From positions 108,055,731-108,119,730 of the forward strand of contig NC_092378.1 of NCBI RefSeq assembly GCF_030028105.1: DNA of 64,000 nt, given 5' to 3'. Of the stretch, positions 17,819 through 63,067 are shown in pieces. The position numbers and the translations under genes are program-made. Position 1 is the first letter of the stretch. Each line of letters begins with the position of its first letter. Below the pieces are notes generated by a model. That model did no database searches, was not told where the DNA came from, and saw nothing but the letters and a program-made list of their open reading frames with translations. The DNA comes from Mobula birostris (taxonomy: Eukaryota).

Positions 17819-17829
17819 ATCTGTATCAG

Positions 17830-37916: not shown

Positions 37917-39530
37917 ACTGAGTATTGAAGTACTCTTTTTAAGGTGACGTTATGTCTAGTTTGTTTGTCTCTTTTTATTCAGCAAAAGAAAAAAATATTT
38001 CCAAATTTTAAGAGAACCATTTGTTTCCTAGGCAGTAGGAAGTCTGCTGTTAGTCCACTGCAGTTTGCCATGTGCTTTTTTTCCCCCCTAGTCAAATGCA
38101 TTTACTACGTGTCCTCCATGCTCAATATTAATACTAAATATTAATGGAACTGATAAAGTATTCAAATAATTGTGGCTGAAGTAGTGGAGATAATAATTAC
38201 TCTTTTAAGGTAAGTGTTTAGCCTCTATAACTTAATTTAAGATGTTACTTAAAGTACTGGTTTTGTTGCTTCTTTGGGCAATACTGCCTAAAGTTATCCA
38301 GAATGTATCTCAAATGGTAATGGAAAAGAAAGCACACTGATAACTGGTTCCAGTTTGGCCATGGCAATTAACACAGGCCACAGTACAGAATGCTTCTGCT
38401 CTGCATGATGATGTTGTAAAATGTGTTAGTCCTAACAGAAAGGTGCTGAGGAAGTACCTGATTTTATAATTTTAAAAAAAAGTATTTGTAAATTAACAAA
38501 TTAAGTAATCCAAATGCTGTTTTTGTGTTTAGATTGCAAACTGTTTCCCTGATTTGGTCCCAACAGTATCACTTTGTGGGCAGCAATCAGATACACTTCC
38601 CATATTTGTCCAATATTTTCCACATCTGTTACAGATGGTCATTATGTACTGGGGGAAGCAACTGGAAAGACCTGTGTTGTGGGAGTAGACTGTGATTGAT
38701 TATTTTCAAGCTTTCTAATTGGAGATGAGTGAAGTCATGTGGTAAAAAGCTTGGAACAAAAGCAGATATTGTGGTGGCCAACCAAGAACATGTGAATGTT
38801 GAACGGGAGCGAAAGTAAAACCTGGACAAACAAATGTGGCATCATTTGCACAATGTCTTCTAGGGATCTTGGCAAAATACATGTGTTTCTTGTTGTGAGA
38901 TGATCTAGAATCAGGAACCTGTTCAACAATAAGGGGTTAGTAAAGTGAATGAGATTGCTTCCTGTATCTAGAGTCTCTGGAATGTTCACTTCCTCAAAGG
39001 TTAAAGTAATCAGCTCATGAATGGCTTTGAAGTAGAGGTGCTTGATTCTTGATTGAACCAAGCCAAAAGGTGACACACTAAATTACAAGAGATGCACATG
39101 AATGTATTTAGTCTTCTATGGGTGACAGGAGAAGTGGGTTGCAAGGGTTTGGTAAGAAGCATGAATACCAGCAGTGGGCTGAATAGTCTGTCGTGCAAGA
39201 AGCTTTATTAATGCCTCTATGCAACCTCCACCTATCACTGAAAAATGTGTCACAACCCAAAATGTCAACTGTTCATTTATTGTCATAGACACTGCCGGAC
39301 CTGCTGAGTTCCTCCAGCAACTGCCTGTTGCTTCTTGCAATTTTAAAAGAATCATTGCTCATAAATAAATTGAGGTTGTTATGTTTGTGGTTCTGATCAT
39401 AAATTTCACTTTTAGTGTTTGCTGAAATCCAAGGGGATATAATCTCCGGTTTGTAATTACAACAAAAGCTGCACATAGTAAAGCTGAACCAAAAGAAGTT
39501 GGGGGCCCTCTGAGGATTAGCTATGTGTAT

Positions 39531-39580: not shown

Positions 39581-39674
39581 GTGGGGCCCTATATAACAGC
39601 AAAGTGGGCAAACAATGTGTCCCTGTTAAGTATTAGCACTTCACAATAATCACAAACAAGTTCTCTTAATACTA

Positions 39675-40440
39675 GCAACACATGACAAACGCTGGAGGAA
39701 CTCAGCAGGCCAGTCAGCATCTATGGAAAAGAGTACAGTTGACGCTTCAGGCCAAGACCCTTCAGCAGGACTGGAGAAAAAAAGATGAGTAGAGTTTAAA
39801 AAAGGTGGGGGGAGGTGGAGGGTGAAACACAAGGTGATAGCTGGAACTGGGAGGAGGGGTGAAATAAAGAGCTGAGGTTGACTGGTGACTGAGATAAAGG
39901 GCTGGACAAGGGGAAAGCTAATAAGAGGACAGAAGGACATGGAAAACGAAAAGAGGGAGCAGTACCCGAGGGAGGCGATAAGCAGGCAAGGAGATCTGAT
40001 GAGAGGGGGGAATGGGAATGGGTAATGATGGGGGGGGGCATTACAGGTTGCTGGAAGTCTATGTTCATGCCATCAGGTTGGAGGCTACTAGACCGAATAC
40101 AAGGTGTTGCTCTTCCATCCTAAGTGTGGCCGCAGTGCGACAGTAGAGGAGGCCATGGATGAACATGTCAGAATAGGAATGGGAAGAGGAATGAAAATGG
40201 GTGGCCACTGGGAGAACCTGTTTTTTTTCTGCTGGACGGAGCATGGGTGCTCGGCGACGCGGTCTCCCAATTCCTGTCGGATCTCACCGGTATACGTGAG
40301 ACCACACTGGGAACACCGGATACAGTAGATAACCCCAGCTGACTCACAGGTGAAGTGTCGCCTCAACTGGAAGGACTGTTTGGGACCCTGAGTGGTATTG
40401 GGAGTGAGGAGGTGTAGAAGCAGTTGTAGCCCTTGTTTGT
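39675..40440 (-). mobile_element. Penelope-like element 3' fragment
   Basis: ORF 40088-40447 HFTCESAGVIYCIRCSQCGLTYTGE (GIY-YIG). Terminal repeat with mutated hammerhead at 39737-39772. Confidence 0.9.
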
Positions 40441-45535: not shown

Positions 45536-45623
45536 ATTTCGGACGAAGGGTCTTGGCCCAAAACATCGACTATACCTCTACCTAGAGATGCTGCCTGGCC
45601 TGCGGCGTTCACCAGCAACTTTT
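45536..45623 (+). mobile_element. Penelope terminal-repeat fragment with truncated/mutated hammerhead
   Basis: GACGAAGGGTCTTGGCCCAAAACATCGACTATACC...GTTCACCAGCAACTTT. Confidence 0.85.
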
Positions 45624-46014
45624 AAGAGTGTTAGATTGAACTTTTTTTTGGTGTGCAGGATGGGAACTATATTTTAAATGGCAGTCTGTTCCCTCGAATA
45701 ATGTTGAACTATCGTACAACACTTGATGTATAAGACATTAAGGTTATTGATGGGAATGGACTTTGAAAATTTCCACTACACCACTGATTAGCAGTGAACA
45801 TTAACCGGATTGGTTCATTGAGTCTCCCCGCCCAATCACCCAAAGTGGAGTAAGTATTTGTCCAGACTGGGAGTGCAGGAACAGGGGCTGGGGAATCAAT
45901 AGCCTGGTTTATGTGCAAACAACAGGAATTCTGTAGATGCTGGAAATTCAAGCAGCACACATCAAAGTTGCTGGTGAACTCAGCAGGCCAGGCAGCATCT
46001 CTAGGAAGAGGTAC

Positions 46015-46050
46015 AGTCGACGTTTCAGGCCAAGACCCTTCATCAGGACT
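46015..46050 (-). ncRNA. Minimal type I hammerhead ribozyme motif, core intact
   Basis: AGUC-CUGAUGA-AGGGUCUUGGCCU-GAA-ACGU-C-GACU: helix I AGUC/GACU, CUGANGA and GAAA core, palindromic ACGU helix III, GUC cleavage triplet. Confidence 0.8.
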
Positions 46051-46098
46051 CCCCCTCCCCCTCCCACTTTCAAATCTCTTACTAACTCTTCCTTCAGT

Positions 46099-46136
46099 TA
46101 GTCCTGACGAAGGGTCTCGGCCTGAAACGTCGACTA
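46099..46136 (+). ncRNA. Minimal type I hammerhead ribozyme motif, core intact
   Basis: UAGUC-CUGACGA-AGGGUCUCGGCCU-GAA-ACGU-C-GACUA. Confidence 0.8.
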
Positions 46137-46252
46137 TACCTCTTCCTAGAGATGCTGCCTGGCCTGCTGCGTTCACTAGCAACTTTGATGTGTGTTGCCT
46201 GGTTTATGTGCATTGTTTTCTGAGATAACTGTTGCTACTATCACTTGTTGGT

Positions 46253-46679
46253 AAGATGGTGGCACGCTTGGATGCAATGACTTCTATGGAGCCAGCAGCC
46301 AAAGTTGTTGACTTTTTAAACATTATTTATGATGGCAAAGACCTGCTGGACATTAGAACTCAACTGGAGAGAGTTGTTATGCTCCACTGGAGTACCACAG
46401 GTGGTGTGGCATGGCAAACGTGCTGGAGTCTGTGCTGTCCTTTAGTGTCCACTAGGCAGAAGACGAGTTGTATTGTGACGAGCTGTGTTACTGCTGCAAC
46501 ATTCATGGACCGTCTTGAACCAGCCTTTTTGTTTGTGTGTGATTATATTTTAGTACTATATGTGCTTTATACTGTGCATGACATTTGGTACTGTGTTTTG
46601 CATCTTGGCTCTGGAGTAACGATATTTCATTTGACTGTGTTCATGTATGGTTGAATGACCATTAAATTTGAAATTGAAA
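46253..46679 (+). mobile_element. Non-autonomous retroelement with AAGATGG(C/T)G head and Rex1-type tail, older copy
   Basis: Starts AAGATGGTGGC. Ends TGAATGACCATTAAATTTGAAATTGAA, like the tail at 24975-25002. Confidence 0.5.
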
Positions 46680-46718
46680 GATGGTCATCAGATTGGGGAC
46701 AGTACACTGATGTGCCTG

Positions 46719-46820
46719 TGCCCTGATGAAAGGTCTTGGTCTGAAACCTTGACTGTCTACTCTTTTCCATAGATGCTGCCTGGCCTGCTGCATTCCTCCA
46801 GCATTTTGAGTGTGTTACCT
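46719..46820 (+). mobile_element. Penelope terminal-repeat fragment with degenerate hammerhead
   Basis: CTGATGAAAGGTCTTGGTCTGAAACCTTGACTG...CATAGATGCTGCCTGGCCTGCTG. Confidence 0.8.
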
Positions 46821-47632
46821 CCTAATGTGTGTCAGCTCAGAAGTGACCAGGAGCCCAACTTGCAGGAAATGAAAATTTTTAAATTGCAACAGGTTCTGGA
46901 CCTGAAATATCAACTGCTTCTCTTTCTCCAGATGCTTCGTGACCCAAACATTTCCAATATCTTTTCTTGTTATTGGTAACTTGCAAGATGAATCGGATCT
47001 GTTCCAGGGTGCACTTTCCCTGAAAGTGAGGCATGTAACTGTGCTTTACGTAGCTTCTGCACCACATAATCACTATGCACCAGTCTATGATGATCCCAGG
47101 AACCTGTTCATCACCAGTGAGGCTTGTAAGACCCTTTCCTCTTCCAGTTTTTGTGGGGAAAATATCATGGTAATACAAGTCCAAGCTGGTGTTTGGGGCA
47201 CATTTGTAGCCAAGGGATAATGTAAGGGACTCGTGGAGGATGGACAACCTAGCTTTGCAATTTAATTTGTTAAAATTGGACAAATTTAAGAGAAGTTAAT
47301 TATATTTTTAAAAAAACGCCAGGCCGGTACTGTTAACGCGAACTCTGAATAGTAAAGGCAGCCTGCAAGAGCAGTGTTTGTGTAGGCATTTTGGAGTTAC
47401 ATCATTGTAACATAATGTCTGTGCTAATGGCTTTTTTTAGGATTGGTTCTTTGGCTGCCTGCCTTTAATTGCACCGACCCCCTGGCTCCAGTGATGTCAT
47501 TAAGATAATTTGGATATCTGGAAGTTAATTTTTTTTTATATATAATTGCTCTCTGTTCAAAATAGAACTCACGATCACTGCAGAAAGAGTCGTTCATTTA
47601 CAATGAGGGCCAACTTAAAGGAAAGTGAAATG

Positions 47633-48493
47633 CATATAGAAACATAGAAAATAGGTGCAGGAGTAGGCCATTCGATATGATCATGGCTGATCATCCAAAT
47701 CAGAACCCTCTACGTGACTTCTCTCCATACCCTCTGATCCCTTTAGCCACAAAGGCCGTATCTAACTCCCTCTTAAATATAGCCAATGAACTGGCCTCAA
47801 CTGTTTCCTGTGTTAGAGAATTCCACAGATTCACCACTCTCTGTGTGAAGAAGTTTTTCCTTATCTCGGTCCTAAAAGGCTTCCCCTTTATCCTCAAGCT
47901 GTGACCCCTCATTCTGGACTTCCCCAACATCGGGAACAATCTTCCTGCATCTAGCCTGTCCAATCCCTTTAGAATTTTATACATTTCAATAAGATCCCCT
48001 CTCAATCTTCTAAATTCCAGAGAGTATAAGCCTAGTCGATCCAGTCTTTCATCATATGAAAGTCCTGCCATCCCAGGAATCAATCTGGTGAACCACCTTT
48101 GTACTCCCTCTATGGCAAGAATATCTTTCCTCAGATTAGGGGACCAAAACTTCACACAATACTCCAGGTGTGGTGTCACCAAGGCCTTGTACAACTGCAG
48201 TAGTACCTCCCTGCTGCTGTACTCAAATCCTCTTGCTATGAATGCCAGCATACCATTCGCCTTTTTCACCACCTGCTGTACCTGCATGCCCACTTTCAAT
48301 GACTGGTGTAGAATGACACCCAGGTCTCGTTGCACCTCCCCTTTTCCTAATCAGCCACCATTCAGATAATAATCTGTTTTCCTGTTTTTGCCACCAAAGT
48401 GGATAACCTCACATTTATCCACATTAAATTGCATCTGCCATGAATTTGCGCATTCGCCTAACCTATCCAAGTCACCCTGCATCCTCTTAGCAT
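47633..48493 (-). mobile_element. Young CR1 3' fragment with an uninterrupted 211-aa ORF2 C-terminus (47700-48335)
   Basis: QRDLGV...KKANGMLAFIARG...HLEYCVKFWSP...YSLEFRRLRGDLIE...RGHSL...FFTQRVVNLWNSL. Tail CTATGTTTCTAT. Confidence 0.95.
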
Positions 48494-48978
48494 CATATCA
48501 AGATAGTATTTCACGAACTTTATTGAAATGTTTGTGTGATTTTTGATAACAATGGGAATTGTCCCTGTAACATTACAAGGGACTGCTATTATTGGAGGTG
48601 CTCCACATGGCGACCATACCTGTAAGCTCAGATGTATCCTGAGGAGCTGGAGAACCCAGATTGGGACATCCCAGCAGCGGACTGGGGCTCAACTTCTCGT
48701 GATGCTAATTTATCAGGCTTGTGAATGAGGTATAACAAGTGAAAGGAAGGTAGAACAGTGGATGTAACCATTAGTGTCCTTCAATAATCTTAGAAGGACA
48801 AATCTTGGATTTTGGTGTGTCAGTTATTTAACATTGAGATATGAGTGTGTATCTACATGTGTTTCCAGTAAAGAACAGATTTGGGGAAAAGTTATTGAAT
48901 AAAAAATAACCACTTTCAAAAATGCACTCTCAATGTATACACAAGAAACTCTGATTATTGCATACATAAACACTACAA

Positions 48979-49057
48979 TAGAAGTTTCCAACCTTTTTAT
49001 GCCATGGAGCCTTACCATTAATTGAGGGGTCCATGGACCTGGGTTTGGGAACTCCTG
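48979..49057. mobile_element. hAT (Charlie-like) MITE, 79 bp
   Basis: Imperfect TIRs TAGAAGTTTCCAACC and GGTTTGGGAACTCCTG. 8-bp TSD CACTACAA / CACTACAC (48971-48978, 49058-49065). Confidence 0.8.
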
Positions 49058-49971
49058 CACTACACTGAGCCAACATGAAGTGTATTACTGTTTTAAAAAG
49101 TATGTGTGGGCTTTCAGGCAATTGAACTTTACTTTTCAAAGATTTATTATAATTTTATTAAATTTTGTAACCATGTTAAATTGGTGTCCTAAGTTCTTAG
49201 CAGAGAGTCATTCTGGCTGCAGTTAATAAGCTGAATGTGGCGTTTCAGATTAGTTCATTATGATGAATTTCTGAAGTAGTTTAGCAAATTTCAGGAATGA
49301 ACTAATTGAGGGGGGATGGGGAGGAAAAGATTAGAATGTAAGTGGCTGATCAAAACAAGACAACACGAAATGCCACAGTGAACAAATGAGCTCATTGTAG
49401 CAATGACTAAGTGTTTTGTCTCCCGTCACTCCTCCTGACTGCCCTTGTTAATCTATAATCAGAACCAGTCATCTGTACTATCAGGTCAATGTGTGTCTTA
49501 TGCACAGTCTTTTTTTTTGAGCTGGTTGTGAGATTCTTTGTGCAGCATACTGTAAGTACAGTGAGCATCTTATTCAGCATGGACATTGATTTAATACAGC
49601 AATCACAAAGCGGTTCTCTTTCACCACACTCTTGATGCATTCAGCAAATTATAGTGAATCTTCTGCTTGGAAATTCCATATAGTGGCCTGAGATTTGACA
49701 CCATTATTTTGGAGGGGTTTGCTATTCCTGTGGCAGTCCTCTAAGGGAAGTAGCCTTGAGGTTCTTGCCATTGGCACGTTGTACTCCATTCCTGCAGAAG
49801 GAAGCCCGTTTGAACTACTGCGTGCAGTATAGTACTAATGCACGTTGGTGACCTACAGTGCATGCATGATACTGGAAAAGCACTAGGTGGTTTAACCACA
49901 GCTGTAGAATGAAAGGGTAAGATGACCATGTTTCTAAATATTTTACTTCAAATGTAATGTACTTGAATTTT

Positions 49972-51260
49972 TGAACATGGAGCATAGAGTACAGCGAAGG
50001 ATCAGGCCAATTATCCCACAATATTGTGTCTGATTAATGGCATTGCCAATCGAACGCCCAACTAAACTGATTCCTTCTGCCTACATAATGTCCATATTCT
50101 TCCATTTCCTGCACATACATGTGTCTACCTAGCACCACCATCGTATTTGCCTCTCCACCACTGCCCCAGGCAGCACATTACAGGGGTGGGTGTGTGTGTG
50201 TGTGTGCTCGTGTTCCTTTGAACTTCTCCCTCTCACCTTAAATGCATGCCTTCTAGTATTAGAACTTTTCAGCCTGGCCATAAGATGCTGGCTGTGTGCT
50301 CCATCTATGGCTCCTATAATCTTATAAACCTCTATCTGATCTCCCTTCGGCCTCCGCTGTTCCAGAGGAAACAACTGCAGCCTGTCCACACCCTCTCCTC
50401 CGTGCAGCATTCCAGTGAACCTCTTCCACACCCTCTCCACAGCCTCAGTCCTTCCTGTAATGGAGCAACCACAACCGAGTGCAATACTTGATGCAGCCTA
50501 AGTAGAGTTTTATGAATTTGACTTGGAAGCCATGTGCAGATGCTATGTTCCTGTGCATTTGCCCCCCCCCCCCACCCCAAGATCAATTTAACTTCCCTCC
50601 CACACAGTCCTCCATCTTTTTCAGATAAGCACATGTATAAAAGAAGTTTCTTGAGTCCGTAATGTATCTGCCTCCACCACTATGTGTTTTGCATAACACT
50701 CGCTCTGTTTTTAAAAAAAACCTCTGACATCCCCACAATACTTTCCTCCGTTCACCGTAAAGTTGTGCCTCTCATAATCGCAATTTCTACCCTAACTGTC
50801 CACTTTATCTATGCCCCTCCTTATCATCCCATTCAAGTCACCTCCCCATTTTCTCCAAAGAGAAAAGTCCTTACTTGACGTATTCTCTTAAGATATACTC
50901 TAATTCAGACAGCAGCCTGGTAAATCCCTTCTGCACCCTCTAAAACCTACACATCCTTTCTATGATGAGCGGATCAGAAGTGAATACAGTACTCCCAAGT
51001 GTGATCTAACCAGAGTTTATAGAGCTGCAACATTATTTTGTGGCTCTTGAACTGAATCCCCTGACTATTGAAGGCTAACACAAACACCCTACCAACTTGC
51101 ATGGCAACGTTGAGGGATCTGTGGACATGGACCCCAAGTTCTGTCTGTTCTTCCCATTAAGATTTCTGCCATTAGTGCTGTATCTGCCTTCAAGTTCAAC
51201 GTCCAAAACTCCACACTTTTTCCCCATTGACCTCTGCCAATTCTCAACCTAGCTCTGCAT
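49972..51260 (-). mobile_element. Two adjacent degenerate CR1 3' fragments with a (TG)n tract near 50190-50206
   Basis: ERVWKRFTGML...LEQRRPKGDQIEVYKII...TRRHAFKV in the first copy. The second copy is at ~50560-51260. Confidence 0.75.
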
Positions 51261-51831
51261 GCTATCCGTGTCCTAACCTGTTCCAATTGGGTATGTATGT
51301 GAACTGGAGTAGGGATGGTGGTTGGCAGAGATATGGGATCTCTTAATAGTTATGCCAGGTGATGCATATAACACGTGCTAAAGCCACGCGCTCAAATGAT
51401 AATTGACCTGCTGTTGTCCTTTTTCAGATCCATTGGTGTTCTAGTTTGTAAAATCTGTTTTTGTGTATGTATTGTATAAGTTTGTTACACACAACTTGTC
51501 TCCTTCCAATGTGTGTGCTCCCTGTTATGAATAATTAGTGCTTGAATGTTTGTTTTCAACTCTGGATGCATGTTCAGTTGTTATTGGTCAGCCATGTCAT
51601 GAGCTTTCATCATTTGGCAAAGGCAGCAACTTTCAACTGTAATAACTTTCAACCAAATTGGCCAGTGCAAGCTCAGTACACATGAGCATTGAGAGGCACC
51701 TGAAACATCTTCTGTTATTCTTTTCCATAGATACTGACTGATCTGCTGAAATTCTCCAGCATGTTGTTACACCTGGGCATTGTCCAACTGTTGCCCTTTG
51801 CTGCTACATTTGTTTGTTATTCCGGATTCTG

Positions 51832-52092
51832 GGCCAGCGCGGTAGCGTAATGGTTAACACAACACTCTATAGTACCAGCAATCTGGGTTCAATTTCCACC
51901 GCTGCCTGTAAGGAGCTTGTACATTCTCCCCATGACTGCTACGGCTTCCACCCAGAGTCCAAAGTGCACTGGTTGTTAGGTTAATTGATCATTGTAAATT
52001 TTCCTGTGTTTAGGCTAGAGTTAAACATGGATTGCTGGGCGGTGGGGCTCGAAGGCCAGAAGGACCTATTCTTCACTGTATATGAATAAATT
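51832..52092 (+). mobile_element. V-SINE/HE1-like SINE
   Basis: tRNA head GGTAGCGTAATGG...GGTTCAATTTCC, central TTGTACATTCTCCCCATGAC, tail AATAAA. Confidence 0.8.
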
Positions 52093-53427
52093 TTTGCTGG
52101 TTCCTCACTCATCCTTGCTCAGTGATCCCTATTACATGCCCACAAGCCAATCCAATTACCCTTGTGTTTGGAGTACCCCAAACTGAGGAGCTGCATTCTA
52201 GAGCAATGTGTCTGGGTTCCATTATCAAAGTATTGCCAGCTTCATTGGGAGTGTTTCATAAAATTTCTAGAGCTAGTTGTACTTAATAACTGACGTTCAG
52301 TTTATAAAATTTTATCAGAGAAGATGAGCCTGAGTAATATGTTCACTATCATAGACTTGTTACTTATAATGTGTTCATATCATAGCCTTGTTACTAATTG
52401 GCAAAGTATTTGATTTCCACAGAGCCTCCCAGCTTTGTCTGTGTCTAGTGCTAATCTTCCCAGTGTGAATTTGTCATTTCTGCACGTAAAATTTTCCATC
52501 GATAATGAGTAGAGGGAAGTTAGGAATAAGTGAAGAAACTCGCCTATGCAGCTTGTAGTTCCACTGAAACAGCAAACTCTAGCAAAAACCATTGCTTTGT
52601 TATTCGTCAGTAAACTGTGTACGTGTCATCTAATTACTTCAGATAAGCAGATGAAGCTCAGCTTTTTCTGATAGTTCATTTTTATTTTGTGGTTCAGATC
52701 TCTGATTCTTTGTTATGAATTAATTGATCCATTATTCCATGACATCCTAATCGTAAACTACCCCATTAACAGATTTGATGCAGGAAACAGAAAATGTTAA
52801 AATAGTTAAATGTTCTATATTTGAGGGAAAAGTGTGGTTTATGCCTGACCTGAGTAAATAGAAAGAAGCTTAATTTATATTGGCCAGAAAAATAGTGAAG
52901 GTAATTGTTTATTTGCATGAGGTACATGTTTATTATAAAGCCAGCTCCTAAAAGGTCACAGAGCTTCACTGTTCTGTGTGAAATCCCTCTTATACAATTG
53001 CTTCAAAGTTTTTTTTCCCAGCCTAATAAGATTGACTCCACTCGAAGTGAAAAGGAATATGTAGCAGTAACTTGAACAAACTAGTGTCGCTGCTGGCAAC
53101 CAAACAGGAGGTAGTTATCCTTGTATGATTCACCCTCTGATAAATCCAATAATAGTGTTCCAAAAAGTCAAAGAAATATATTCAATCCTTTATTAGCAAC
53201 TGGCAAAGCATACAATCTTGAAGCAATGTAGTGAAGTTAAGTAATTTCAAATGCAATTCAGTAACGTTAAGCAATCAACAAAAGATGTGACACCCAGCGG
53301 TCCCCAGCTCTAAACTGTCAAGAGCAAAGCACGAATATGTATCTAAACCCTTTGCTTTTACCACGTCCCCACTCACGTGACTAGTTACCATAATAAATGC
53401 ATGAAGCACAGAATACAATGCAGATAG

Positions 53428-54106
53428 AAACGCAAACATGAGAAAATCTGCAGATGCTGGAAATTTAAGCAACACACATAAAATGTTGGTGGAACGCAGC
53501 AGGCCAGGCAGCATCTATAGGAAGAAGTACAGTTGACGTTTCGAGTCGTGAACCTTGGTCAGGACTAATGGAAAAAAAGATAGTAAGAGATTTGATGGGG
53601 AGGGGGAGACCTGAAAGGATAGGAGAAGACAGGATGGGGGAGGGATGAAGCCAAGAGCTGGGAAGTTGATTGGCAAAAGGGATACAAGGCTGGAGAAGGG
53701 GGAGTATCATGGGACGGAAGGCCTTGGAAGAAAAAAAGTGGGAGGGGAACACCAGAAGAACATGGAGAACAGGCAAGGAGTTACTGTGAGAGGGAAAAAA
53801 AAAAGAAAACAAATGAATTAGGGATGGGGTAAGAAGGGGAAGAGGGGCATTCATGGAAGTTAGAGGTCAATGTTCATGCCATCAGGTTGGAGGCTACCCA
53901 AACGGAATATAAGGTGTTGTTCCTCCAACCTGAGTGTGGCTTCATCTTGATAGTAGAGGAGGCCATGGATTGACATATCAGAATGGGAATGGGATGTGGA
54001 ATTAAAATGTGTGGCTACTGGGAGATCCTGTTTCCTCTGGCGGACAGAGCGTAGGTGTTCAGTGAAGCGGTCTCCCAATCTGCATCGGGTCTCGCCAATA
54101 TATAGG
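53428..54106 (-). mobile_element. Penelope-like element 3' fragment
   Basis: ORF 53860-54078 RFTEHLRSVRQ...LEEQHLIFRLGSLQPDGMN. Complete terminal repeat, mutated hammerhead at 53531-53566. Possible TSD TAGAAAC. Confidence 0.9.
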
Positions 54107-55518
54107 TAGAAACAGGATGCTTGGCTCTTACAGAATAGTTATTCATTGTTTTGTGCGTGGGTTATGGCATCCTAATGCAGGTTCTATGCATCATTTCTCC
54201 AAGGGCACTTACGCGGATTGGAGAGAAGTACTTCCCAGGATTTGTTGTCATGGGACACTCTTGGCAATTAAATCTTTATGCTAAATTGGGAATCCTTTAT
54301 CTAGTCTTTTTATATCCAATTTTCTAGCTCCCCTCCACATTGGTTTCTTGATTTCCTCAGTAACTTGCCTTTCCCTAGGCCCACCCTGCAGTTGCTGGTC
54401 CCTCTTCCCTCGTTACACCTCATCATCTGTCTAGGGTGAGATCCTAACCTCTCACCCGTTGTGCGGCCTATTGAAGCCATTCATCACACCCAGAAAAGAC
54501 TATGTGGCCAATGTGTGCTGTTTGCCATTGGAGTGAAAACTAGCAAAGATGAAGCAAATTATCTGCTTCTGAACTTTAATTCTTTGAACCTTGATGACTA
54601 GTTTAAATCCCAGAGACTGCAGCATGGTCGTTTCACATGCCACCGCAGCTGAGTTCACAATCAATCTTGACAATGGAAGCAAGTTTTCTTAAACGGAGAT
54701 GGTTGGCATTGAGCCTTGGAAGTGTTTTATTTTTGTTTGACTTGGGTTGAAGCTCCAGGAGAGATGTTTGGGAGGACTTTCTCCTCAGTTCTAATTTGTT
54801 AATCTTCCTAAAGAGGTCTTTCCCAAGGTCTTAAAAGTACCTTTGGATTTTGTTCTTCTAGGGTTGTGTGAGTCGGTGGAATTTTAATGACTGGGTCTTC
54901 GCCTCACTAGTTATAGAAACAGGTGATCTTGCTGTGGCTTGAGGCTAATTTGCTATTGAGTGGGGCCCATACCTCCTCCATCCATTTGTAATTCTGCCTT
55001 GTATTATTATCTCTAGATAGTCAAACTCTTTAAATTTAAACATTGATTGTGGACGAAAATTTTTATCTTGCTACTTCCCTGGTTCACTTTCGCCATCCCA
55101 CTCTGTAAAACTGCTTTCTATGTAATCTCCCTAAATTGCTTTATTCCATATTTTCTTGCAACCTAGAAGCCATTTCAGTTAATTTTGCTTACGCTGGCTC
55201 TCGGTAATCCCGTTCCTGTTGGAAATCACCCTGTAATCTATTCTGCTTCAATCATGATTCTGCTTCTTTTCTACAGACTAATTTACATTCTACCAACAAG
55301 TTCGATTCTACCACTTGTACCATTAAAGAATATTTAATTGTTTTTAGTTCTCGGGTATTCGTCCAGGGAAGCAAGATAATTTCTTATTTCAGTGACATTG
55401 TCTCAAATGCATCTTGCCTTTACCCTAAAGTGAAGGCTGTGCTGCCACACACAGTGATCTTCCACACCCGTCAGACATGGTTCCTATGGGTTATGCTTGC
55501 TTTGATCTCCCCTTCATC

Positions 55519-56182
55519 AGGAGGGGAGGAGAAGATGGCGCAATGCAGCGCGCGCGGCTGCTCCGAAATGATTTTATATTTGTAAGTAAGGGCCGTGCAC
55601 AACCCTGATTTGATGGAGACAGATGTGAGAAGCACGGAGGAACATCTGGAGGAACTTCTGAAATGCCCGCTTCGCTGCCGTTGCTACTGTGCGATTGAGA
55701 ATCTCTGGAGGGGAAGGCCCCAAATCCTTGGCTTTGCCTGTTGCAGGGGCTGGGGTCGAAGCGCTCGGCAGAGATGGTGCTCGGTGTCGGAGGGCTGGTC
55801 GGAGGCTCGAAGTTTTCGAACAGACTCGAGAGTCGACTGTTGTTGGGTGCTTCCAGAGTGCTGCATTGGCAAGTTTGCGGCGCTGGAAGCTCATGGCAGG
55901 AAGAGAGTTTCTCTTCTTTCTACTGTCTGTGTGAGATGATGGGACTTTCGAAAGACTTTGAGACTTTTTTTTACCATGCCCATAGTCTGTTCTTTATCCA
56001 ATTTATGGTATTGCTTTGCACTGTTGTAACTATATGTTATGATTATGTGGTTTTTGTCAGTTTTTTTAGTCTTGGTTTGTCTTGTTTCTGTGATATCATT
56101 CTGGAGGAACATTGCATCACTTAATGCATGCATTACTAAATGACAATAAAAGAGGACTGCGTGTCCTCATAATCTAATCTAA
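55519..56182 (+). mobile_element. Apparently young non-autonomous retroelement: AAGATGGCG head, CpG-rich body, AATAAA, (AATCT)n tail
   Basis: Sharp compositional boundaries. AAGATGGCG at 55532-55540, AATAAA at 56145-56150, tail TAATCTAATCTAA. No RT motif. Confidence 0.7.
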
Positions 56183-56309
56183 ATTCATTTTGTATTTGAA
56201 CAATGACCAGCAGATGACAATCTTTGATTTTGAATCTGGGCTTTGCCCTGACAGAAGTGCACATTATTCAACCCTGTAGCAAACCAGACATGGTGTGGTA
56301 CAATGGAAG

Positions 56310-56892
56310 CCAATAGAACTGTTACCTCTTGGTTCCAATGGCCTGGCTTCAATCCTGACTTGTATGGAGTTTGCATATTTCCCCGTGATAGCAAGATTTA
56401 TCTTTGGACACTCTGATTTCCTCCCCATTCTGAGGACATTTATTTATTGAGAGACAGAGTGGAGTAGGCTGTTCTGGCACTTTGCGGCATGCCGCCCAGC
56501 GACTCCCAACTTAACCCTAGCCTGATCAAAGGACATTTTACTTCCTTGCTTATCCTTCCAACCAGTACATCTTTGGACTGTGGGAGGAAACCAGAGCACC
56601 TGGAGGATACCCACAAGGTCACGGGGAGAAAGTACCAACTTCTAACAGGCAGTGGCGGGAATTGAACCCATGTCACTGGTACTGTAAAGCGTTCTGCTAA
56701 CCACTGTCCTGCACCATACAGGTCATTATAGGTCAGTAAGTTAATTCATGATTATAAATTGACCCTAGTGTGTGTTAGTGGGGGCAGACCTTGATGAAAA
56801 CAAGGGAGAGAATATGATGAGATTAATGTAAATGGGTCCTTGATGGCTAGCATAGACTGGTTGGGTCTCGGGGCCTGTTTTTGCATTATGTA
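56310..56892 (+). mobile_element. V-SINE/HE1-like SINE split by an antisense SINE (56440-56716)
   Basis: Host reads TGTATGGAGTTTGCATATTTCCCCGTGA...TTTCCTCCCCATTCTGAGGACAT, then insert, then AGGTCAGTAAGTTAATT. The insert contains the reverse-complement central domain and B-box. Confidence 0.75.
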
Positions 56893-57905
56893 AATTGTGG
56901 CTGAGTGACTAGCTGAAGCTCCTGGTTCTATTGCAGATGGCTCCTGCAATAATAAAATAAACCCTTTGAATAATGAGATCTTAAGGTTTATCAGTTTGCT
57001 TTCGCATGCCTCGGTGATTGTGGCATCCTTGGCATGGGTTGCAGTTATTTAAAGAATTTTTTTTCACCCTTCCCAATCCAAGGCTTTTCGATTTGCATGT
57101 TCAGTGAAACCAACGAAGCCAGGTGCCTGGATGCTTACGAAACTCAACTCAAAATAACATGCAGTGCTTTAGTGGAATAAGTCTATGCGTTATGTTGGGC
57201 ACAGGTGTTTATATTATCTGTGAAAAGGGCACAGCATTTTGTTTTTACTGCCAATTTTGATGCAAGCCTGCTTTAAAAAATGTATAATGGTGATACCTTG
57301 TAGAGTAATTGAAAACTGAGTGTAGAATTCCTTGGCTGAGATAAAGCCGCATTTAGCAATACAAATACCAGGAACAAGTGCATGGATGCCAACTAAAAAG
57401 TTCAGTGAAGGGGCCATGGAACCAAGGAAGGTTCTGAAAGGGTGACATAATCAGTCCTATTTCTTCCCCTGACCCCACGCCTTGCAATTTTCACATAGTT
57501 TTTGCACTTTCTGGTATTAGTTTTCTTCTGAAAGATGCTGTTGTATCGATTAACACCACCCTTTTGTACAGTGCATTCCACACATTCAAATGTTCTCCAC
57601 CTCACCTCACGCACATTGATAGTTACCATAAATCTGTGGTTTCTGCCAAGTGGACTTCAGCCACAAGAAACTATTCTTCCTTGTCTGTGCTTCCAAAACC
57701 TTTCTGTCAGTTTCGACACTGCAATAATTGGCAGTGAAGCTTCACTCCCCAGTGATTCAACGCCTTTTATGCATGCTTCATATGGGAGAATACCCACAGT
57801 ATCTGGTGACCCTGGATCTTTGACTCAGAGGCTGATGTTAGAGCATCCTTCAGGGCGGTGAATCCCTTGCAAGGTGTCAGGCCCCGATGGAGTACGAGGC
57901 AGGTT

Positions 57906-58101
57906 TTGTTGTTGTTCAGTCATTAAGTCGAGTCCAACTCTTCCTGATCTCGTAGACCATCGGGTTTTCATAGCAAGATATGGAAGTAGATTGCCAGGCC
58001 TTTCTTCCGTGCAGTTACTACTGCTGCCCAGGATGAGTAAAACTCAGGACCATCTGCCTTGAAATCCAGTGCTGATGCCGCTACACCACCAGCTGGCCCA
58101 A
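57906..58101 (-). mobile_element. tRNA-head SINE with BovB/Bov-A-like (RTE) tail
   Basis: Minus strand GGCCAGCTGGTGGTGTAGCGG...GAAGAAAGGCCTGGCAATCTACTTCCATATCTTGC...GAAGAGTTGGACTCGACTTAATGACTGAACAACAACAA. 10-bp TSD GAGGCAGGTT (57896-57905, 58102-58111). Confidence 0.8.
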
Positions 58102-58944
58102 GAGGCAGGTTATAGGAAACCTACGCCAGCCAACTGGCTGCAGTGATCAAGGACGTCTTCATCCCCTCACTGCTACAGTATGGGGTGCCCAAGAAGAGCA
58201 AAGTGAGGTACCTCAATTATTATAGCCAGATAGCACTCACAGCTGAGACTTGTGTAGTGTTTGGCCAAACTCGCTCGCTGTTGTACTTCACACCATTAAT
58301 ACTTTCATGCGTCCTTTATGCTTTTTAACAAACAGTCTTGTCAGTTTGTCTTTCTAACTTCAAAACATTCTGTTGCCTATTTCCTTTGTCCGTGCAATAA
58401 TTGTATCTTTGTAAAATGAGCAAGTTAACCCCACTGGAAAGCAATATCAACTAGACGTTCATTGTAACCAGACAGTGGTAGCAACACCAAAACGTTTTAA
58501 GTTTGATTTATAGAAATCTTTATTGTGTTTATGGAATTGAAGGAATGATGGGAGTTTCTCTGACCAGTTTGGGATTCTGTTTTGAGCATTGGCGTTGTGG
58601 CCTTCAATGTCAACTGTCAAAGAGGATTTGGAGATTATGGCCAGAGATGCAGATTAAACATGTTTACTGTTGACTAATCTTCTGAGAAGCACTTGGGAAC
58701 AAAAATCAGACAGGCAGCACTAATGTCTGCAGCAGAGCAGCTGCAGCCCTGAAAGCCACTGGATGACAATCAAACTGTCTTCATCCACTACCTATTGCTA
58801 TTTTCCTTCATGGCCGTGTTGTGCTTGCCAGAGGTGCAATGCTTTGGATAGCATACAGTGAATGTTTCAGAGTGAAAAAGGAAGGTTTAATATGGTAGTT
58901 CTTTTGCGGTGATTATAATTGATACCATTTTTGCTAAAAAGGAC

Positions 58945-59185
58945 AGCAACACTTTACAGGCAATCTAGGTTAAATTCCCTCCACTGCCTGTAAGATCTTT
59001 GTACATTCTTCCCATGACCATGTGAGTATCCTTCAGGTACTCCAGTTTCCTCCCACAGTCCAAAGACTAGGTTAATTGGTCATTGTAAATTGTCCTGCGG
59101 ATTAGGCTATGTACAGGGTTACATCGGGGGATTCCTGGGTGGTGCGGCTTGAAAGACCCATTCTGCGTTGTATTTCAAATAAACA
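58945..59185 (+). mobile_element. V-SINE/HE1-like SINE
   Basis: Matches 51860-52090. Confidence 0.75.
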
Positions 59186-59844
59186 GAGCTAATTGCTACC
59201 TTGGGAAAAGTTGACTATTTGGTATTGAATCAAGTCTATGTTGCTATAGGTGGCTTAGTTTGTATAATTGTGTCTGTATCTGTGCCCTAATTTAATTTGA
59301 GTGATAAGATTCTATTACACTGGCATTCACTGTTAATAGACCTGTTGCATTAAGAGGAGTTCTTCAAATCAAACAAGGGCCAGTGCCTTTCTACTGAGTA
59401 AGGAAATAGTTTGTTGAGAAACAATCAAAGGCACCTTTAGTTGTAACGTGAAGGGATTCAATCCATTCCGTCTCACTATAATTTTCCCCTTTAATCCACC
59501 CTCTGAATAGCCTAACTCCCACAATAGCCCTTACCCTCTTCCCATCAAAGCTAATGATGCACATTCTCTGTGGTATGTTTAATCTTCATAGAACTTCAAT
59601 GCCTACATCTTGCAGTCGCTAAGATTCTCATCTACAATGTTGCCTCTTCCAACCCATTTGCCTCCCAAGCCACTAAAATTTCAACTCATTTGAAGCCCTG
59701 GTACCCACATGAAGGCTGCACTAAGCCCCATGTACCTAGCTTCCCTTTCCTTGCTAGCACAGTTCCACACAGAACACTAATTTTAAAGTCCTCCATGACC
59801 TTTCATTTCAAACCTACTCTCCTCTTTTCTCTCTACTAGTAAGA

Positions 59845-60146
59845 GTCAGTGGCAAATATTGCACTCAGCTTCACTTGCACCATCATTGAAATCTTCCCAC
59901 ATCCTATAAAATCGTTTTCAAGAACTGTTCATATCTTGTTCTTAATATTTATTGCTTATTCATTTATTATTATTATTTTTATATTTGCACAGTTTGTTGC
60001 CTTTTGCACATTGGTTGAACACCCAAGCTGATGTGGTTTTTCATTGATTCTATATGGTTATTCAGTATGCCCACAAGAAATTGAATCTCAGGGATGTATA
60101 TGGTGACATATATGTACTCTGATAATAAATTTACTCTGAACTTTGA
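59845..60146 (+). mobile_element. Rex1-type LINE 3' UTR
   Basis: Matches the reverse complement of 36665-36930. Ends AATAAATTTACTCTGAACTTTGA. Confidence 0.7.
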
Positions 60147-60899
60147 GAATTCTCATTCTCCCTCTACAGTACTATATCTCTTTGACTCGCACATCTTTGC
60201 TTCCTCCAAGTTCATGCACCAGTTTGATTTCTTCCTTCCCATCTACGTACTACTAAAACTCTCATGCTCTGTCTGTCTGTTTGTCTGTTTGTGACCTCCA
60301 ATTAGTGCAAATGGTGCATTACAGCAGCACTTTATTTTGGCTAAATCCAATTAAAATGCGCTAACTTGCAGAATACAGGCAAAGTTCAGGGTTATATATT
60401 CGTATAAAATTGCTCATTCGCCAGAAATCAACAGGCTCCCTTTTAACCCGCGAGCCAGTCTGCCATCATGGAAATCGGGACACGACAGCTCGACACATGC
60501 GCATGGCCAACCTCAGCAGCGACACCTACCGAAGCAAAAGGGCAGGGCAGCTCTATTTTGAGGGGTCCACATTCTGCTAATCACCATCAGCATGTGCAGG
60601 ATTGGGACAGATCTAACTGCCACCCATCTATAAGAAATAATTAAATCTTATTGTAATGACGTCATTGGGAAGTGGCAAGGAGAGGGGGAGAACAAGAATT
60701 GGATGAGGCCAGGGCTGCATGACTCCAGGATCAAAGAGTCAGGACAAAAAAGATGAGAGAGTACAGATGAAACAGAGGAGGAGAGGCATGCACGGCTCCA
60801 GGATCAGAGACAAACAACAAATAGTAGAAGAGATGAAGAGATGGGGGATGAAAGGGCTGCATGTCTCCAGAATGACAGCGATAGGCACAAGGGTGGCAG

Positions 60900-61999
60900 A
60901 GCAACACTCACAACACGCTGGAGGAACTCAGCAGGTCGGGCAGCATCCGTGGAAATGATCAGTCAATGTTTCGGGCCAGAACCCTTCATCAGGACTGAAG
61001 AGGGAAGGGGCAGAGGCCCTATAAAGAAGGTAGGGGGAGGGTGGGAAGGAGAAGGCTGGTAGGTTCTAGGTGAAAAACCAGTAAGGGGAAAGATAAAGGG
61101 GTGGGGGAGGGGAATCAGGGAAGGGATAGGCAGGAAAAGTGAAGATGGAACAGGGGAAAGCACAATGGGTAGTAGAAGGAGGCAGAACCGTGAGGGAGGT
61201 GATAGGCAGCTGGGGGAGGGGGCATAGTGAAACAGGGATGGGGGAAGGGAGGGGGAGAGAATTACCGGAAGTTGGAGAATTCAACGTTCATGCCCAGGGG
61301 CTGGTGTCTACCCAGGCGGTATATGAGATGTTGCTCCTCCAACGTGAGCTTAGCCTCATCATGGCAATAGAGGAGGCCATGTATGGACATATCTGAATGG
61401 GAGTGGGAAGCAGAGCTGAAGTGGGTGGCTACTGGGAGATCTTGTCTGTTTTGGCAGACGGAGCGGAGGTACTCGATGAAGCGGTCCCCCAATCTGTGTC
61501 AGGTTTCACCGATGTAGAGGAGGCCGCACCGGGAGCACTGGATGCAATAGATGACCCCAACAGACTCACAAGTGAAGTGTTGCCTCACCTGGAAGGACTG
61601 TTTGGGGCCCTGAATGGTAGCAAGAGAGGTGGGGTAGGGACAGGTGTAGCACTTACGCTTACATGGATAAGTGCCGGGTGGGAGATCCGTGGGGAGGGAC
61701 GTGTGGCACCAGGGAGTCGCGATGGACCGATCCCTGCGGAAAGTGGAGGGGGAAAGATGTGCTTAGTGGTGGGGTCCTGTTGAAGGTGGCGGAAGTTGTG
61801 GAGGATAATGTGCTGGATCCGGAGGCTGGTGGGGTGGTAGGTAAGGATAAGGGGAACTCTGTTCCTGTTGTGGTTGCGGGAGGATGGGGTGAGGGCCGAA
61901 GTGCAGGAAATGGAGGAGATGAGGGTGAGGGCATCATTGATGACGGCAGAAGGGAAACCATGATCCTTAAAGAAAGAGGACATTTGAGATGTCCTGGAT
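60900..61999 (-). mobile_element. Penelope-like element, second subfamily (different 3' UTR)
   Basis: MSSFFKDHGFP...RVPLILTYHP (61585-62028), GIY-YIG remnant (61262-61492), hammerhead variant at 60961-60996. Confidence 0.92.
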
Positions 62000-62289
62000 G
62001 GCAGATAAGCCAGAAATGATGTCATCAAAAGTGTCCTTCGTTAAATGAGGAGCTATATTTGCTTTGCTATGAGTCGTTCTTCTTTAATAAACTGAGGTTT
62101 CCAAAGCAAAGTGATACCAATAGCATTCAGGAAAATTTAATGTTCATTCTGGTCACATCAGACTGCGCTACCCTTCTCTCAAAGGGTGCTCCAACGGGTC
62201 ACCCCGTTGTCTAGTAAATAGCTAAATACTTTAATGCAAGATGCATTTTAAAATATAAAGTTTGCTCTTGTTCTTTTAAAGTAACAAGT

Positions 62290-62856
62290 AGAATTCGAGC
62301 AACACGCATAAAAGTTCCTGGTGAATGCAGCAGGCCAGGCAGCATGGAAGAGGTACAGTCGACGTTTCGGGCTGAGACCCTTCGTCAGGACTAACTGAAG
62401 GAAGAGCTAGTAAGAGATTTGAAAGTGGGAGGGGGAGGGAGAGATCCAAAATGATAGGAGAAGACAGGAGGGGGAGGGATGGAGCCAAGAGCTGGACAGG
62501 TGATTGGCAAAAGGGATATGAGGGGATCATGGGACAGGAGGCCCAGAGAGAAGGAAAAGGGGGAGGGGGGGAAACCCCAGAGGATGGGCAAGGGGTATAG
62601 TCAGAGGGACAGAGGGAGAAAAAGGAGAGAGAGAGAAAGAATGTCTGTATATAAATAAAAAACGGATGGGGTACGAGGGGGAGGCGGGGCATTAGCGGAA
62701 GTTAGAGAAGTCAATGTTCATGCCATCAGGTTGGAGGCTACCCAGACGGAATATAAGGTGTTATTCCTCCAACCTGAGTGTGGCTTCATCTTTACAATAG
62801 AGGAGGCCATGGATAGACATATCAGAATGGGAATGGGACGTGGAATTAAAATGTGT
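62290..62856 (-). mobile_element. Penelope-like element 3' fragment, same subfamily as 15653
   Basis: Closely matches 15653-16170. 21-bp duplication at the truncation point (62817-62837, 62857-62877). Confidence 0.92.
62357..62392 (-). ncRNA. Minimal type I hammerhead ribozyme motif, core intact
   Basis: AGUC-CUGACGA-AGGGUCUCAGCCC-GAA-ACGU-C-GACU. Confidence 0.8.
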
Positions 62857-63067
62857 GACATATCAGAATGGGAATGGATTTTAATTTACACATTACGACA
62901 ACTCAAGCACAGTTAAATGCTTTTATTAGTAAGAATATAATTTCCTTTTTAAAAGTATTTACAAATGTACTATAAATGTTAATATAAACTATGCCAAGTC
63001 ATTGAAAGGCACTTGATAAATTCTTCATTTCTTCACTGAAGTTGCTCACAGTGTGTCCTTTCAGTCT

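What the first reader, a model, noticed from the sequence alone, without database searches (positions are those of the whole stretch)
46015..62392. Family of minimal, dimer-type hammerhead ribozymes carried in Penelope terminal repeats
Seen: a 36-nt motif AGUC-CUGANGA-helix II-GAA-ACGU-C-GACU occurs at ten positions: 15694-15729(-), 27319-27354(-), 39737-39772(-), 45536-45571(+), 46015-46050(-), 46099-46136(+), 46719-46754(+), 53531-53566(-), 60961-60996(-) and 62357-62392(-). The copies at 46015, 46099 and 62357 have a perfect core. The copy at 60961 keeps the core but has ACAU-U in place of ACGU-C. The others carry core or helix III substitutions. Established: Penelope-like elements encode minimal type I hammerheads whose helix III is a short palindrome, thought to act as dimers. 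Inference: at this density the genome holds very many such motifs, and intact copies in one long transcript might pair via ACGU and cleave it. The class is known; the density and any effect on host RNA here may not be described.
Basis: partly seen in the sequence, partly recalled or inferred. Interest (0 to 1): 0.75.

Follow-up and report, generated by a model that had tools for sequence, protein, structure and literature searches.

The report
Penelope retrotransposon hammerheads, decaying ray copies
The ten short self-cutting-RNA (hammerhead) motifs are real, but they are the already described minimal hammerheads at the ends of Penelope-like jumping genes, here in truncated, decaying copies in a likely ray genome, and they are unlikely to cut the host's RNA at this locus.

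Summary
Observation confirmed. All ten motifs are at the stated places. A strict descriptor finds 3 intact copies, against 1 hit in 300 shuffles. Five more decayed ends exist. All lie in the terminal repeat of a Neptune-type Penelope-like element whose endonuclease is up to 86-87% identical to stingray and devil-ray proteins. No copy keeps the RT core. The motif fits the published minimal hammerhead (PMC4209133).

The host-cleavage idea is not supported here. 46015(-) and 46100(+) are the two arms of one inverted insertion with a 16-bp target duplication, predicted to lock each other in a -194 kcal/mol hairpin. 62357 has no intact free partner. A lone motif folds into an inactive rod, and the double hammerhead is 7-10 kcal/mol worse than two rods. 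Changes cluster at CpG (28/100 vs 20/260), as in neutral decay.

Density is high: 236 ends/Mb and 47 intact/Mb here, and roughly 0.7-1.3 million ends by read depth. I found no paper giving this for rays. This scan noted the same motif before in five other shark or ray genomes. Cleavage was not tested.

The parts
62357..62392 (-). Intact minimal type I hammerhead motif (helix I AGUC/GACU, core CUGACGA, extra A, helix II, GAA, ACGU palindrome, C17); predicted cut between 62361 and 62360. Best-formed copy.
62292..62860 (-). 5'-truncated PLE copy: endonuclease C-terminus (62695-62859), about 300-nt pyrimidine-rich 3' region, motif, conserved downstream block; ends about 5 nt past the short end point
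46015..46050 (-). Motif with complete core (G10.1-U11.1 wobble); left arm of inverted insertion; predicted cut 46019/46018
46100..46135 (+). Motif with complete core (G10.1-U11.1 wobble); right arm of the same insertion; predicted cut 46131/46132
45915..46200 (.). One head-to-head inverted PLE insertion: left arm with 35-40-nt tail (45915-46050 -), 49-nt spacer of 3' region, right arm without tail (46100-46200 +); arms differ at 7 of 102 nt
45902..45917 (+). Left copy of 16-bp target-site duplication
   Evidence: score 16; best of 298 random pairs 12
46197..46212 (+). Right copy of the 16-bp target-site duplication
60961..60996 (-). Motif with core kept but ACAU-U at helix III and cut site
60898..62040 (-). 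Longest PLE fragment (another subfamily): RT thumb, CX3CxxC linker, GIY-YIG endonuclease (broken frames), 3' region, motif; short end point
53432..54106 (-). PLE fragment with endonuclease end, decayed motif 53531-53566 (G8>C) and full tail; 10-bp candidate target duplication (weak score)
39668..40440 (-). PLE fragment with endonuclease part and decayed motif 39737-39772 (A6>C, A15.1>G); 8-bp candidate target duplication (weak score)
15653..17671 (-). PLE insertion in a CR1-like LINE: inverted tail (17632-17670 +), a TG...CA-bounded insert 16728-17628, thumb/CX4CxxC linker/GIY-YIG (16009-16727), decayed motif 15694-15729; 14-18-bp target duplication
27226..27354 (-). Short solo end (motif 27319-27354, A6>C, plus tail) starting at the first base of the motif; 10-bp candidate target duplication (weak score)
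45536..45633 (+). Short solo end with decayed motif 45536-45571 (U4>G, G12>A)
46719..46820 (+). Short solo end, motif 46719-46754 with core kept but helices I and III broken
13212..13415 (.).
39247..39322 (+).
   Evidence: E 9e-11
46891..46944 (+).
   Evidence: E 8e-6
51699..51766 (+).
   Evidence: E 8e-9
15257..15529 (-). PLE coding fragment (thumb/linker) without a terminal repeat

Best explanation
The motifs are minimal type I hammerheads in the terminal repeat of a Neptune-type Penelope-like retrotransposon family, carried along in 5'-truncated copies that are likely dead and likely decaying without selection, so any cutting would likely happen only in the RNA of active tandem elements, probably as protein-assisted dimers, and not in host RNA here. 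Steps. (1) Shown: each motif sits about 270-300 nt after the endonuclease stop, or alone as a 100-140-nt end piece, followed by a conserved block and an optional 35-40-nt tail. (2) Inferred from the Anolis PLE work: reverse transcription starts at two internal sites downstream of the ribozyme, so every insertion, however short, copies the ribozyme first. This explains the density without any role for the copies. (3) Shown: 14 of 15 ends begin 10 nt or more upstream of the predicted cut, so their templates were uncut RNA. (4) Predicted: a single motif folds into a rod in which G5-A6-N7-G8 pairs with the ACGU-C cut site, and copies in inverted insertions are buried in long duplexes. (5) Inferred: in a tandem pLTR-ORF-pLTR transcript two motifs would swap strands through ACGU, likely with help from the element's protein, and process the element RNA.
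For: PLE identity: GIY-YIG plus CX4CxxC linker and CCHH residues in the window; up to 86-87% identity to Hypanus and Mobula proteins, and relatives P0006, P0011, P0012 carry RVT_1 and GIY-YIG. PLE architecture: two 3' end points about 35-40 nt apart (5 ends with tail; 6 of the 10 listed copies stop at or within about 5 nt of the short point) and inverted 5' arms with target duplications at 46 kb and 15-17 kb, as described in PMC8557442 and PMC3846280 (passages). No RT catalytic core in the window: tblastn covers P0005 only from residue 202. Neutral decay: 28 of 100 CpG cells changed (26 deamination-type) vs 20 of 260 non-CpG, p=3e-6. Across public DNA contigs the four CpG bases of ACGUCG show 8-12% transitions, while U16.1 and positions 1.2-1.4 have no change at 3% or more. 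Rod lock probability 0.92-1.0 for the three intact motifs folded alone; double hammerhead -9.5 to -14.7 vs two rods -16.4 to -23.8 kcal/mol. Literature: monomers inactive, dimers weak (PMC4209133); Anolis PLE hammerhead cuts only with PLE protein, uncut RNA is the main template, and no RNA-seq ends at the cut site (PMC11167929).
Against: No cleavage was measured. No full-length or tandem element is in the window, so activity of this family's motif is assumed from relatives. Covariation among the ten copies is no better than shuffles, and Rfam has no match. Energies ignore tertiary contacts and Mg2+, and in longer context the rod often gives way to other folds (lock probability 0.03-0.95). In the two RNA-guessed runs CpG changes at ACGUCG are only 3-5%, so intact motifs are over-represented there; expression of young copies or assembly bias could each explain that. 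One decayed end (13307+) aligns from 3 nt before the cut site. The catalytic core (46023-46050) got no rows, probably because it lay within about 30 nt of the stretch end, so it was not scored genome-wide.
Confidence: 0.88

Rival explanations
1. One reading: dispersed intact copies pair through ACGU inside long host transcripts and cleave them often enough to matter, for example by shaping intron content or RNA turnover.
For: Intact motifs are dense: 3 in 63.5 kb = 47/Mb (95% CI 10-138), so large introns would hold several. The nested double hammerhead is formally possible, with negative free energy. All 6 coding-bearing PLE fragments lie on the - strand, opposite the strand suggested by base skew (T>A 8.6%, G>C 3.7%), as selection in an intron might give.
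Against: Counting all 15 motif-bearing ends there is no strand bias (7 +, 8 -). On the + strand only 46100 is intact, and it is predicted to be locked in a 100-bp duplex. On the - strand 62357's only intact partner (46015) is 16.3 kb away and also locked. The dimer is 7-10 kcal/mol worse than two rods. No host exon was found. Published PLE min-HHRs are weak even as tandem dimers (PMC4209133), and 8 of 9 Xenopus retrozyme dimers did not cut in vitro (bioRxiv 2026.07.22.740005).
Confidence: 0.07
2. The motif is kept in the element not for catalysis but as a structural signal (RT/endonuclease binding site, RT stop or transcript 5' boundary), and the hammerhead consensus is a relic.
For: 9 of 15 ends start inside the 36-nt motif, 5 of them at positions 1-7, which suggests a 5' boundary or RT stop at the hairpin. 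The downstream block is as conserved as the motif. Ribozyme mutants did not affect insertion in vitro (PMC11167929).
Against: All 11 core bases and the palindrome are kept across subfamilies whose 3' regions are only 56-63% alike (motif 69-81%), and across PLEs of distant phyla (PMC4209133). The Anolis motif does cleave, with C3/G8 rescue (PMC11167929).
Confidence: 0.2
3. The short solo ends are an independent non-autonomous element (retrozyme or SINE-like) that spreads through its own circular RNA.
For: Many copies are 100-140-nt pieces that start at the motif. Retrozymes derived from pLTRs are reported in vertebrates, including one chondrichthyan (bioRxiv 2026.07.22.740005).
Against: No tandem arrays of the unit, which define animal retrozymes (PMC7229834). 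The short pieces share end points and tail with the long PLE fragments, and lengths form a 5'-truncation series. They start upstream of the cut site, not at it.
Confidence: 0.08

Closest known systems
Minimal hammerheads (min-HHR) in pLTRs of metazoan Penelope-like elements (Cervera and De la Pena 2014, PMC4209133)
   Same: Type I topology, 4-bp helix I, one extra base between A9 and 10.1, G10.1-C11.1 pair (wobble in two copies), palindromic 15.2-16.2 with no loop III, location in the pLTR, mostly solo copies from truncated elements, some pairs close together on opposite strands.
   Different: Helix II is 3-4 bp here, against 7-8 bp in the schistosome motifs. Host is a cartilaginous fish: no shark or skate row in the two supplement files searched, and file 1 could not be searched. 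Local density of intact motifs (47/Mb) implies far more than the 4,000 (coelacanth) or 9,000 (Xenopus) counted there.
Neptune clade of endonuclease-bearing PLEs (PMC8557442, passages)
   Same: C-terminal GIY-YIG with CCHH, CX2-5CxxC linker before it, 5' truncation, inverted 5' copy, 30-40-bp tail at one end.
   Different: No RT domain in the window, so clade placement rests on the linker motif, which Nematis shares, not on an RT tree.
PAc (Poseidon) element of Anolis carolinensis (Frangieh et al. 2024, PMC11167929)
   Same: Hammerhead upstream of two 3' end points that define a tail; insertions made from uncut RNA.
   Different: Different clade. In PAc the ORF starts inside the ribozyme; here the first ATG after the motif does not keep one frame across subfamilies (seen sequences), so the ORF start is unknown.
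Animal non-LTR retrozymes (PMC7229834; bioRxiv 2026.07.22.740005)
   Same: Type I hammerheads needing dimers, very high copy number (126,247 in axolotl), pLTR origin proposed.
   Different: Retrozymes are 170-400-nt tandem repeats expressed as circles; here there are no tandem arrays and the motif is the minimal form attached to PLE fragments.

Membership tests
PLE min-HHR (type I) | Catalytic core C3-U4-G5-A6-N7-G8-A9, G12-A13-A14, A15.1-U16.1, H17 | tested here: met
   Complete in 5 of 10 copies (46015, 46100, 46719, 60961, 62357); with all helices intact in 3 of 10
PLE min-HHR (type I) | Open helix I of 4-5 bp and a closing helix II | tested here: met
   Helix I 77.5% and helix II 97.5% of cells paired over ten copies
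PLE min-HHR (type I) | Helix III reduced to a palindrome (15.1-16.1) with no loop | tested here: met
   ACGU in 5 of 10 copies; of the other five, three differ by a CpG-type change
PLE min-HHR (type I) | Extra nucleotide between 9 and 10.1; G10.1-C11.1 pair | tested here: met
   Extra A in 10 of 10; G-C in 6, G-U in 3, A-U in 1
PLE min-HHR (type I) | Compensatory covariation of the helices | tested here: inconclusive
   1 two-sided change; 152-329 of 500 shuffles reach the observed values; ten decayed copies have little power
PLE min-HHR (type I) | Located in the pLTR of a PLE | tested here: met
   Five motifs follow a GIY-YIG stop by 268-301 nt; the rest share the same downstream block and tail
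PLE min-HHR (type I) | Self-cleavage as a dimer after NUH | not testable with these tools
   Needs in vitro assay; only contig data were offered for RNA, which cannot show RNA ends
Rfam hammerhead models | Score at or near a hammerhead family threshold | tested here: not met
   No hammerhead match at E<=1 or E<=10 on 62320-62430; the motif lacks helix III and loop I
EN+ PLE, Neptune clade | C-terminal GIY-YIG endonuclease with CCHH motif | tested here: met
   Residues visible in alignment; Pfam GIY-YIG weak in window fragments (E 0.015-0.1), above cut-off in relative P0006
EN+ PLE, Neptune clade | CX2-5CxxC linker between RT and endonuclease | tested here: met
   C-X4-C-X2-C at 16009-16530 frame; C-X3-C-X2-C in the 61-kb copy
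EN+ PLE, Neptune clade | Telomerase-like RT grouping with Neptune | not tested
   No RT core in the window; no tree built
EN+ PLE, Neptune clade | pLTR with optional 30-40-bp tail, inverted 5' copy, target duplication | tested here: met
   Tail in 5 ends; inverted structures at 45915-46200 and 15653-17671 with duplications scoring 16 (random best 12 of 298)
Non-LTR retrozyme | Tandem repeats of a ribozyme-bearing 170-400-nt unit | tested here: not met
   Tandem Repeats Finder lists 7 rows, none over a motif

The most novel reading that the evidence does not exclude
Ray genomes carry on the order of 100,000 or more intact minimal hammerheads, several-fold denser per megabase than published animal genomes, and when Penelope protein is expressed it folds pairs of these dispersed motifs into active dimers that cut host pre-mRNA, leaving a genome-wide depletion of intact sense-strand motifs in introns.
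Probability: 0.07. Interest if true: 0.65.

Novelty: new member of a known kind. Interest (0 to 1): 0.17.

Why it matters
As it stands it is another PLE family with the hammerhead that published PLEs carry. Its practical value is statistical: with hundreds of thousands of copies of mixed age and orientation, a ray genome allows a well-powered test of whether PLE hammerheads cut in vivo (intact vs broken motifs, sense vs antisense in introns), which the 2014 and 2024 papers leave open. If host transcripts were cut it would be a new cost of transposon load in large genomes, but nothing at this locus points that way.

Tried and rejected
Whole-genome search: no genome is held for this window, so genome-wide counts could not be made directly. 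Rfam: no hammerhead hit. A 31-letter degenerate pattern found 0 matches in metagenome contigs and 0 in viral contigs, so no full-length element was fetched.

Host gene: Pfam on all 402 stop-to-stop frames of 55 aa or more gave 2 weak hits (RVT_1, DUF6451, both under cut-off). A splice-site scan gave one candidate exon in the inverted repeat at 63-64 kb. It found no credible relative in PDB, the 5.8-billion protein search, the 1.84-billion phmmer search (2 hits: a bacterial-type BNR-repeat protein and an unannotated repetitive protein, taken as chance) or the ESM Atlas. Transcription direction therefore rests on base skew only.

Expression: no RNA holder is listed on record. Two RNA-guessed contig runs hold the repeat but do not cover the unique flank apart from stray bins, which shows nothing either way. 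Loose ends at 46048-46050 cannot be read as truncation points, because the reference itself changes there. Orthology: one organism-B contig covers the flank and runs 20 nt past the target duplication into the tail (6 differences in 238), short of the tool's 31-letter bridging rule, so a shared insertion is only suggested.

Target duplications for most solo copies scored within the random range (5-8; 12 of 298 random pairs reach 8 or more) and are not claimed. Lunse et al. (RNA Biol, dimer kinetics) is not held; I saw it only as cited in PMC6765202. Supplement file 1 of PMC4209133 and the bioRxiv supplements could not be seen and might list shark or ray motifs.
Full report
OBSERVATION. All ten motifs are at the stated coordinates and strands. 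In standard numbering each has helix I (AGUC/GACU), core C3-A9, one extra A, a 3-4-bp helix II, G12-A13-A14, a four-base A15.1-C15.2-G16.2-U16.1 segment and H17. Three of ten (46015 -, 46100 +, 62357 -) have all 11 core bases, all helices and a palindromic ACGU. 46719 and 60961 keep the core but not the palindrome. The other five have 1-2 core changes. A strict descriptor gives 3 hits in the window and 1 in total over 300 dinucleotide shuffles. A profile of the ten ends found five more decayed ends and a tail-only piece, so there are 15 motif-bearing ends in 63,517 called bases. Rfam reports no hammerhead at E<=1 on the window or E<=10 on one intact copy.

WHAT CARRIES THE MOTIF. Five motifs lie 268-301 nt downstream of a reading frame ending in a GIY-YIG endonuclease. 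The best frame (16009-16530 -) has a C-X4-C-X2-C linker, the GIY-YIG signature and CCHH residues. Of 15 relatives found among longer proteins, 11 are named from Hypanus sabinus or Mobula hypostoma (best 86-87% identity over 79-85% of the query) and one from whale shark; three relatives also carry an RT domain. The host is therefore likely a myliobatiform ray. The CX2-5CxxC linker marks Neptune and Nematis PLEs (PMC8557442, passages). tblastn with three relatives finds only thumb, linker and endonuclease in the window, never the RT core, so every copy is 5'-truncated and none is autonomous or tandem.

INSERTION ANATOMY. Downstream of each motif is a conserved block and then one of two end points about 35-40 nt apart: 5 ends carry the tail, and 6 of the 10 listed copies stop at or within about 5 nt of the short point. 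This matches the 30-40-bp PLE tail, which in the Anolis element marks two internal RT start sites (PMC11167929, parts 1-2 of 4 read). The copies at 46015(-) and 46100(+) are not independent. They are the arms of one head-to-head insertion, 45915-46200, tail on the left arm only, flanked by a 16-bp duplication (score 16; best of 298 random pairs 12), with 7 differences in 102 nt between arms. The 15653-17671 insertion has the same plan with a 14-18-bp duplication. A third, decayed pair at 13.2-13.4 kb shows no clear duplication. Inverted pLTRs with tail and duplication are the standard PLE layout (PMC3846280, passages). 14 of 15 ends begin at least 10 nt upstream of the predicted cut; one decayed end aligns from 3 nt before it. 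The templates were therefore mostly uncut RNA, as found in vitro for the Anolis element.

DECAY. Against the column majority, 28 of 100 cells at CpG positions differ (26 by deamination-type change) against 20 of 260 elsewhere, p=3e-6. Non-CpG core and non-core positions do not differ (5/90 vs 15/170, p=0.47). Helix covariation is not above shuffles. Laying public contigs on 45700-46052 (4 of the 24 runs listed) placed 53,610 and 69,530 contigs from two DNA runs and 4,679 and 4,569 from two RNA-guessed runs. The four CpG bases of ACGUCG show transitions in 9-12% (X1) and 8-10% (X5) of depth, but only 3-5% in the RNA-guessed runs; U16.1 and positions 1.2-1.4 show nothing at 3% or more. The core at 46023-46050 had no rows, probably an edge effect, so it was not scored. 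Between divergent subfamilies (pairs involving 60961, or 39737 with 15694 or 62357) the motif is 69-81% alike, the endonuclease end 69-79% and the 3' region 56-63%. This fits selection on active masters and drift in copies, but single decayed copies are a poor stand-in for masters.

DENSITY. The window gives 236 ends/Mb (95% CI 132-390) and 47 intact motifs/Mb (10-138). Peak summed contig depth divided by the median depth of the eight contigs listed per run gives about 0.7 million (X1) and 1.3 million (X5) ends. The tool warns that this sum is not a copy number, so these are order-of-magnitude figures. They agree with 236/Mb over a 3-4 Gb genome (a red stingray assembly is 3.68 Gb, bioRxiv 2025.06.08.657570, passages; this host's size is unknown). 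Published counts are about 4,000 and 9,000 min-HHRs in coelacanth and Xenopus (PMC4209133, parts 1-2 of 4 read) and 126,247 type I motifs in axolotl (PMC7229834, passages). A total near 100,000 thus has a precedent; the per-megabase density here looks higher. Searches for ribozyme/stingray/Penelope, hammerhead/Chondrichthyes, hammerhead/shark and Penelope/cartilaginous fish gave no paper describing this ray family. The 2026 retrozyme preprint includes one chondrichthyan with retrozymes (parts 1-3 of 5 read; supplements closed).

MECHANISM. Folded alone, each intact motif forms a rod in which G5-A6-N7-G8 pairs with C15.2-G16.2-U16.1-C17 (pair probabilities 0.92-1.0). With flanks the rod persists for 46015 but often gives way to other folds for 46100 and 62357 (0.03-0.67). 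The double hammerhead is possible but scores -9.5 to -14.7 kcal/mol against -16.4 to -23.8 for two rods; a 62357/46015 pair scores -12.1 against -20.1 (no tertiary or Mg2+ terms). Any transcript through 45915-46200 is predicted to form a 100-bp duplex of -194 kcal/mol (z -22.6) on either strand, burying both motifs. So on the + strand, which base skew suggests is the transcribed one (inference, no exon found), the one intact motif is locked. On the - strand 62357 has only a locked partner 16.3 kb away and a mismatched one (60961) 1.4 kb away. Published PLE min-HHRs are inactive as monomers and weak as dimers (PMC4209133), and the Anolis motif cuts only with PLE protein and left no read ends at its site (PMC11167929). 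The simplest account: RT starts just downstream of the ribozyme, so every insertion copies it; the copies then decay; cutting, if any, belongs to tandem element RNA. Cleavage itself was not tested.

COMPARISON AND VERDICT. It works like, and by the sequence features tested belongs to, the PLE min-HHR class. Catalysis and the RT-based clade call are untested, and it fails Rfam's hammerhead models and the tandem criterion of retrozymes. The scan's index lists five earlier follow-ups of the same motif in other shark or ray genomes, one citing over 150,000 motifs; these are unchecked notes and not used as support. Nothing was on record for this genome. New member of a known kind, interest 0.17.

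Noticed in passing
window 63068-63432 and 63636-64000: Inverted repeat with 365-nt arms 98% complementary, running off the window end; the right arm lacks about 8 nt found in the left. It holds a 164-nt stretch with good splice signals and an open frame, but no relative was found in four protein searches. Could be a foldback element, a recent inverted duplication or an assembly artefact.
   Followed up: partly
window 16728-17628: About 900-nt insert bounded by TG...CA inside the inverted arm of the PLE insertion at 15653-17671; looks like a solo LTR. Described only.
   Followed up: no
whole window: Outside masked repeats (42.8 kb) the + strand has T>A by 8.6% and G>C by 3.7%, as in a long intron transcribed from the + strand, yet no exon was identified. 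All 6 coding-bearing PLE fragments are on the - strand, while short ends are on both.
   Followed up: partly
PLE ends across the window: 9 of 15 ends start inside the 36-nt motif, 5 at positions 1-7, suggesting the transcript 5' end or an RT stop at the start of the hammerhead rather than at its cut site.
   Followed up: partly
window 3940-4008: 69-nt near-palindrome scoring 37.6 bits against Rfam mir-9256 (gathering score 80); probably a small inverted-repeat transposon relic.
   Followed up: no
window 17700-20400, 44450-45370, 47600-48400, 50100-51000: CR1/L2-like LINE fragments (weak RVT_1 at 19319-19618); the 15.6-17.7 kb PLE insertion interrupts one of them. Family label is from recall of the translated frames.
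   Followed up: no
proteins P0003, P0005, P0010: Public ray gene models named mucin-2, divergent protein kinase domain 1C and chitinase domain-containing protein 1 isoforms contain this PLE's coding sequence, likely annotation read-through into the repeat.
   Followed up: no
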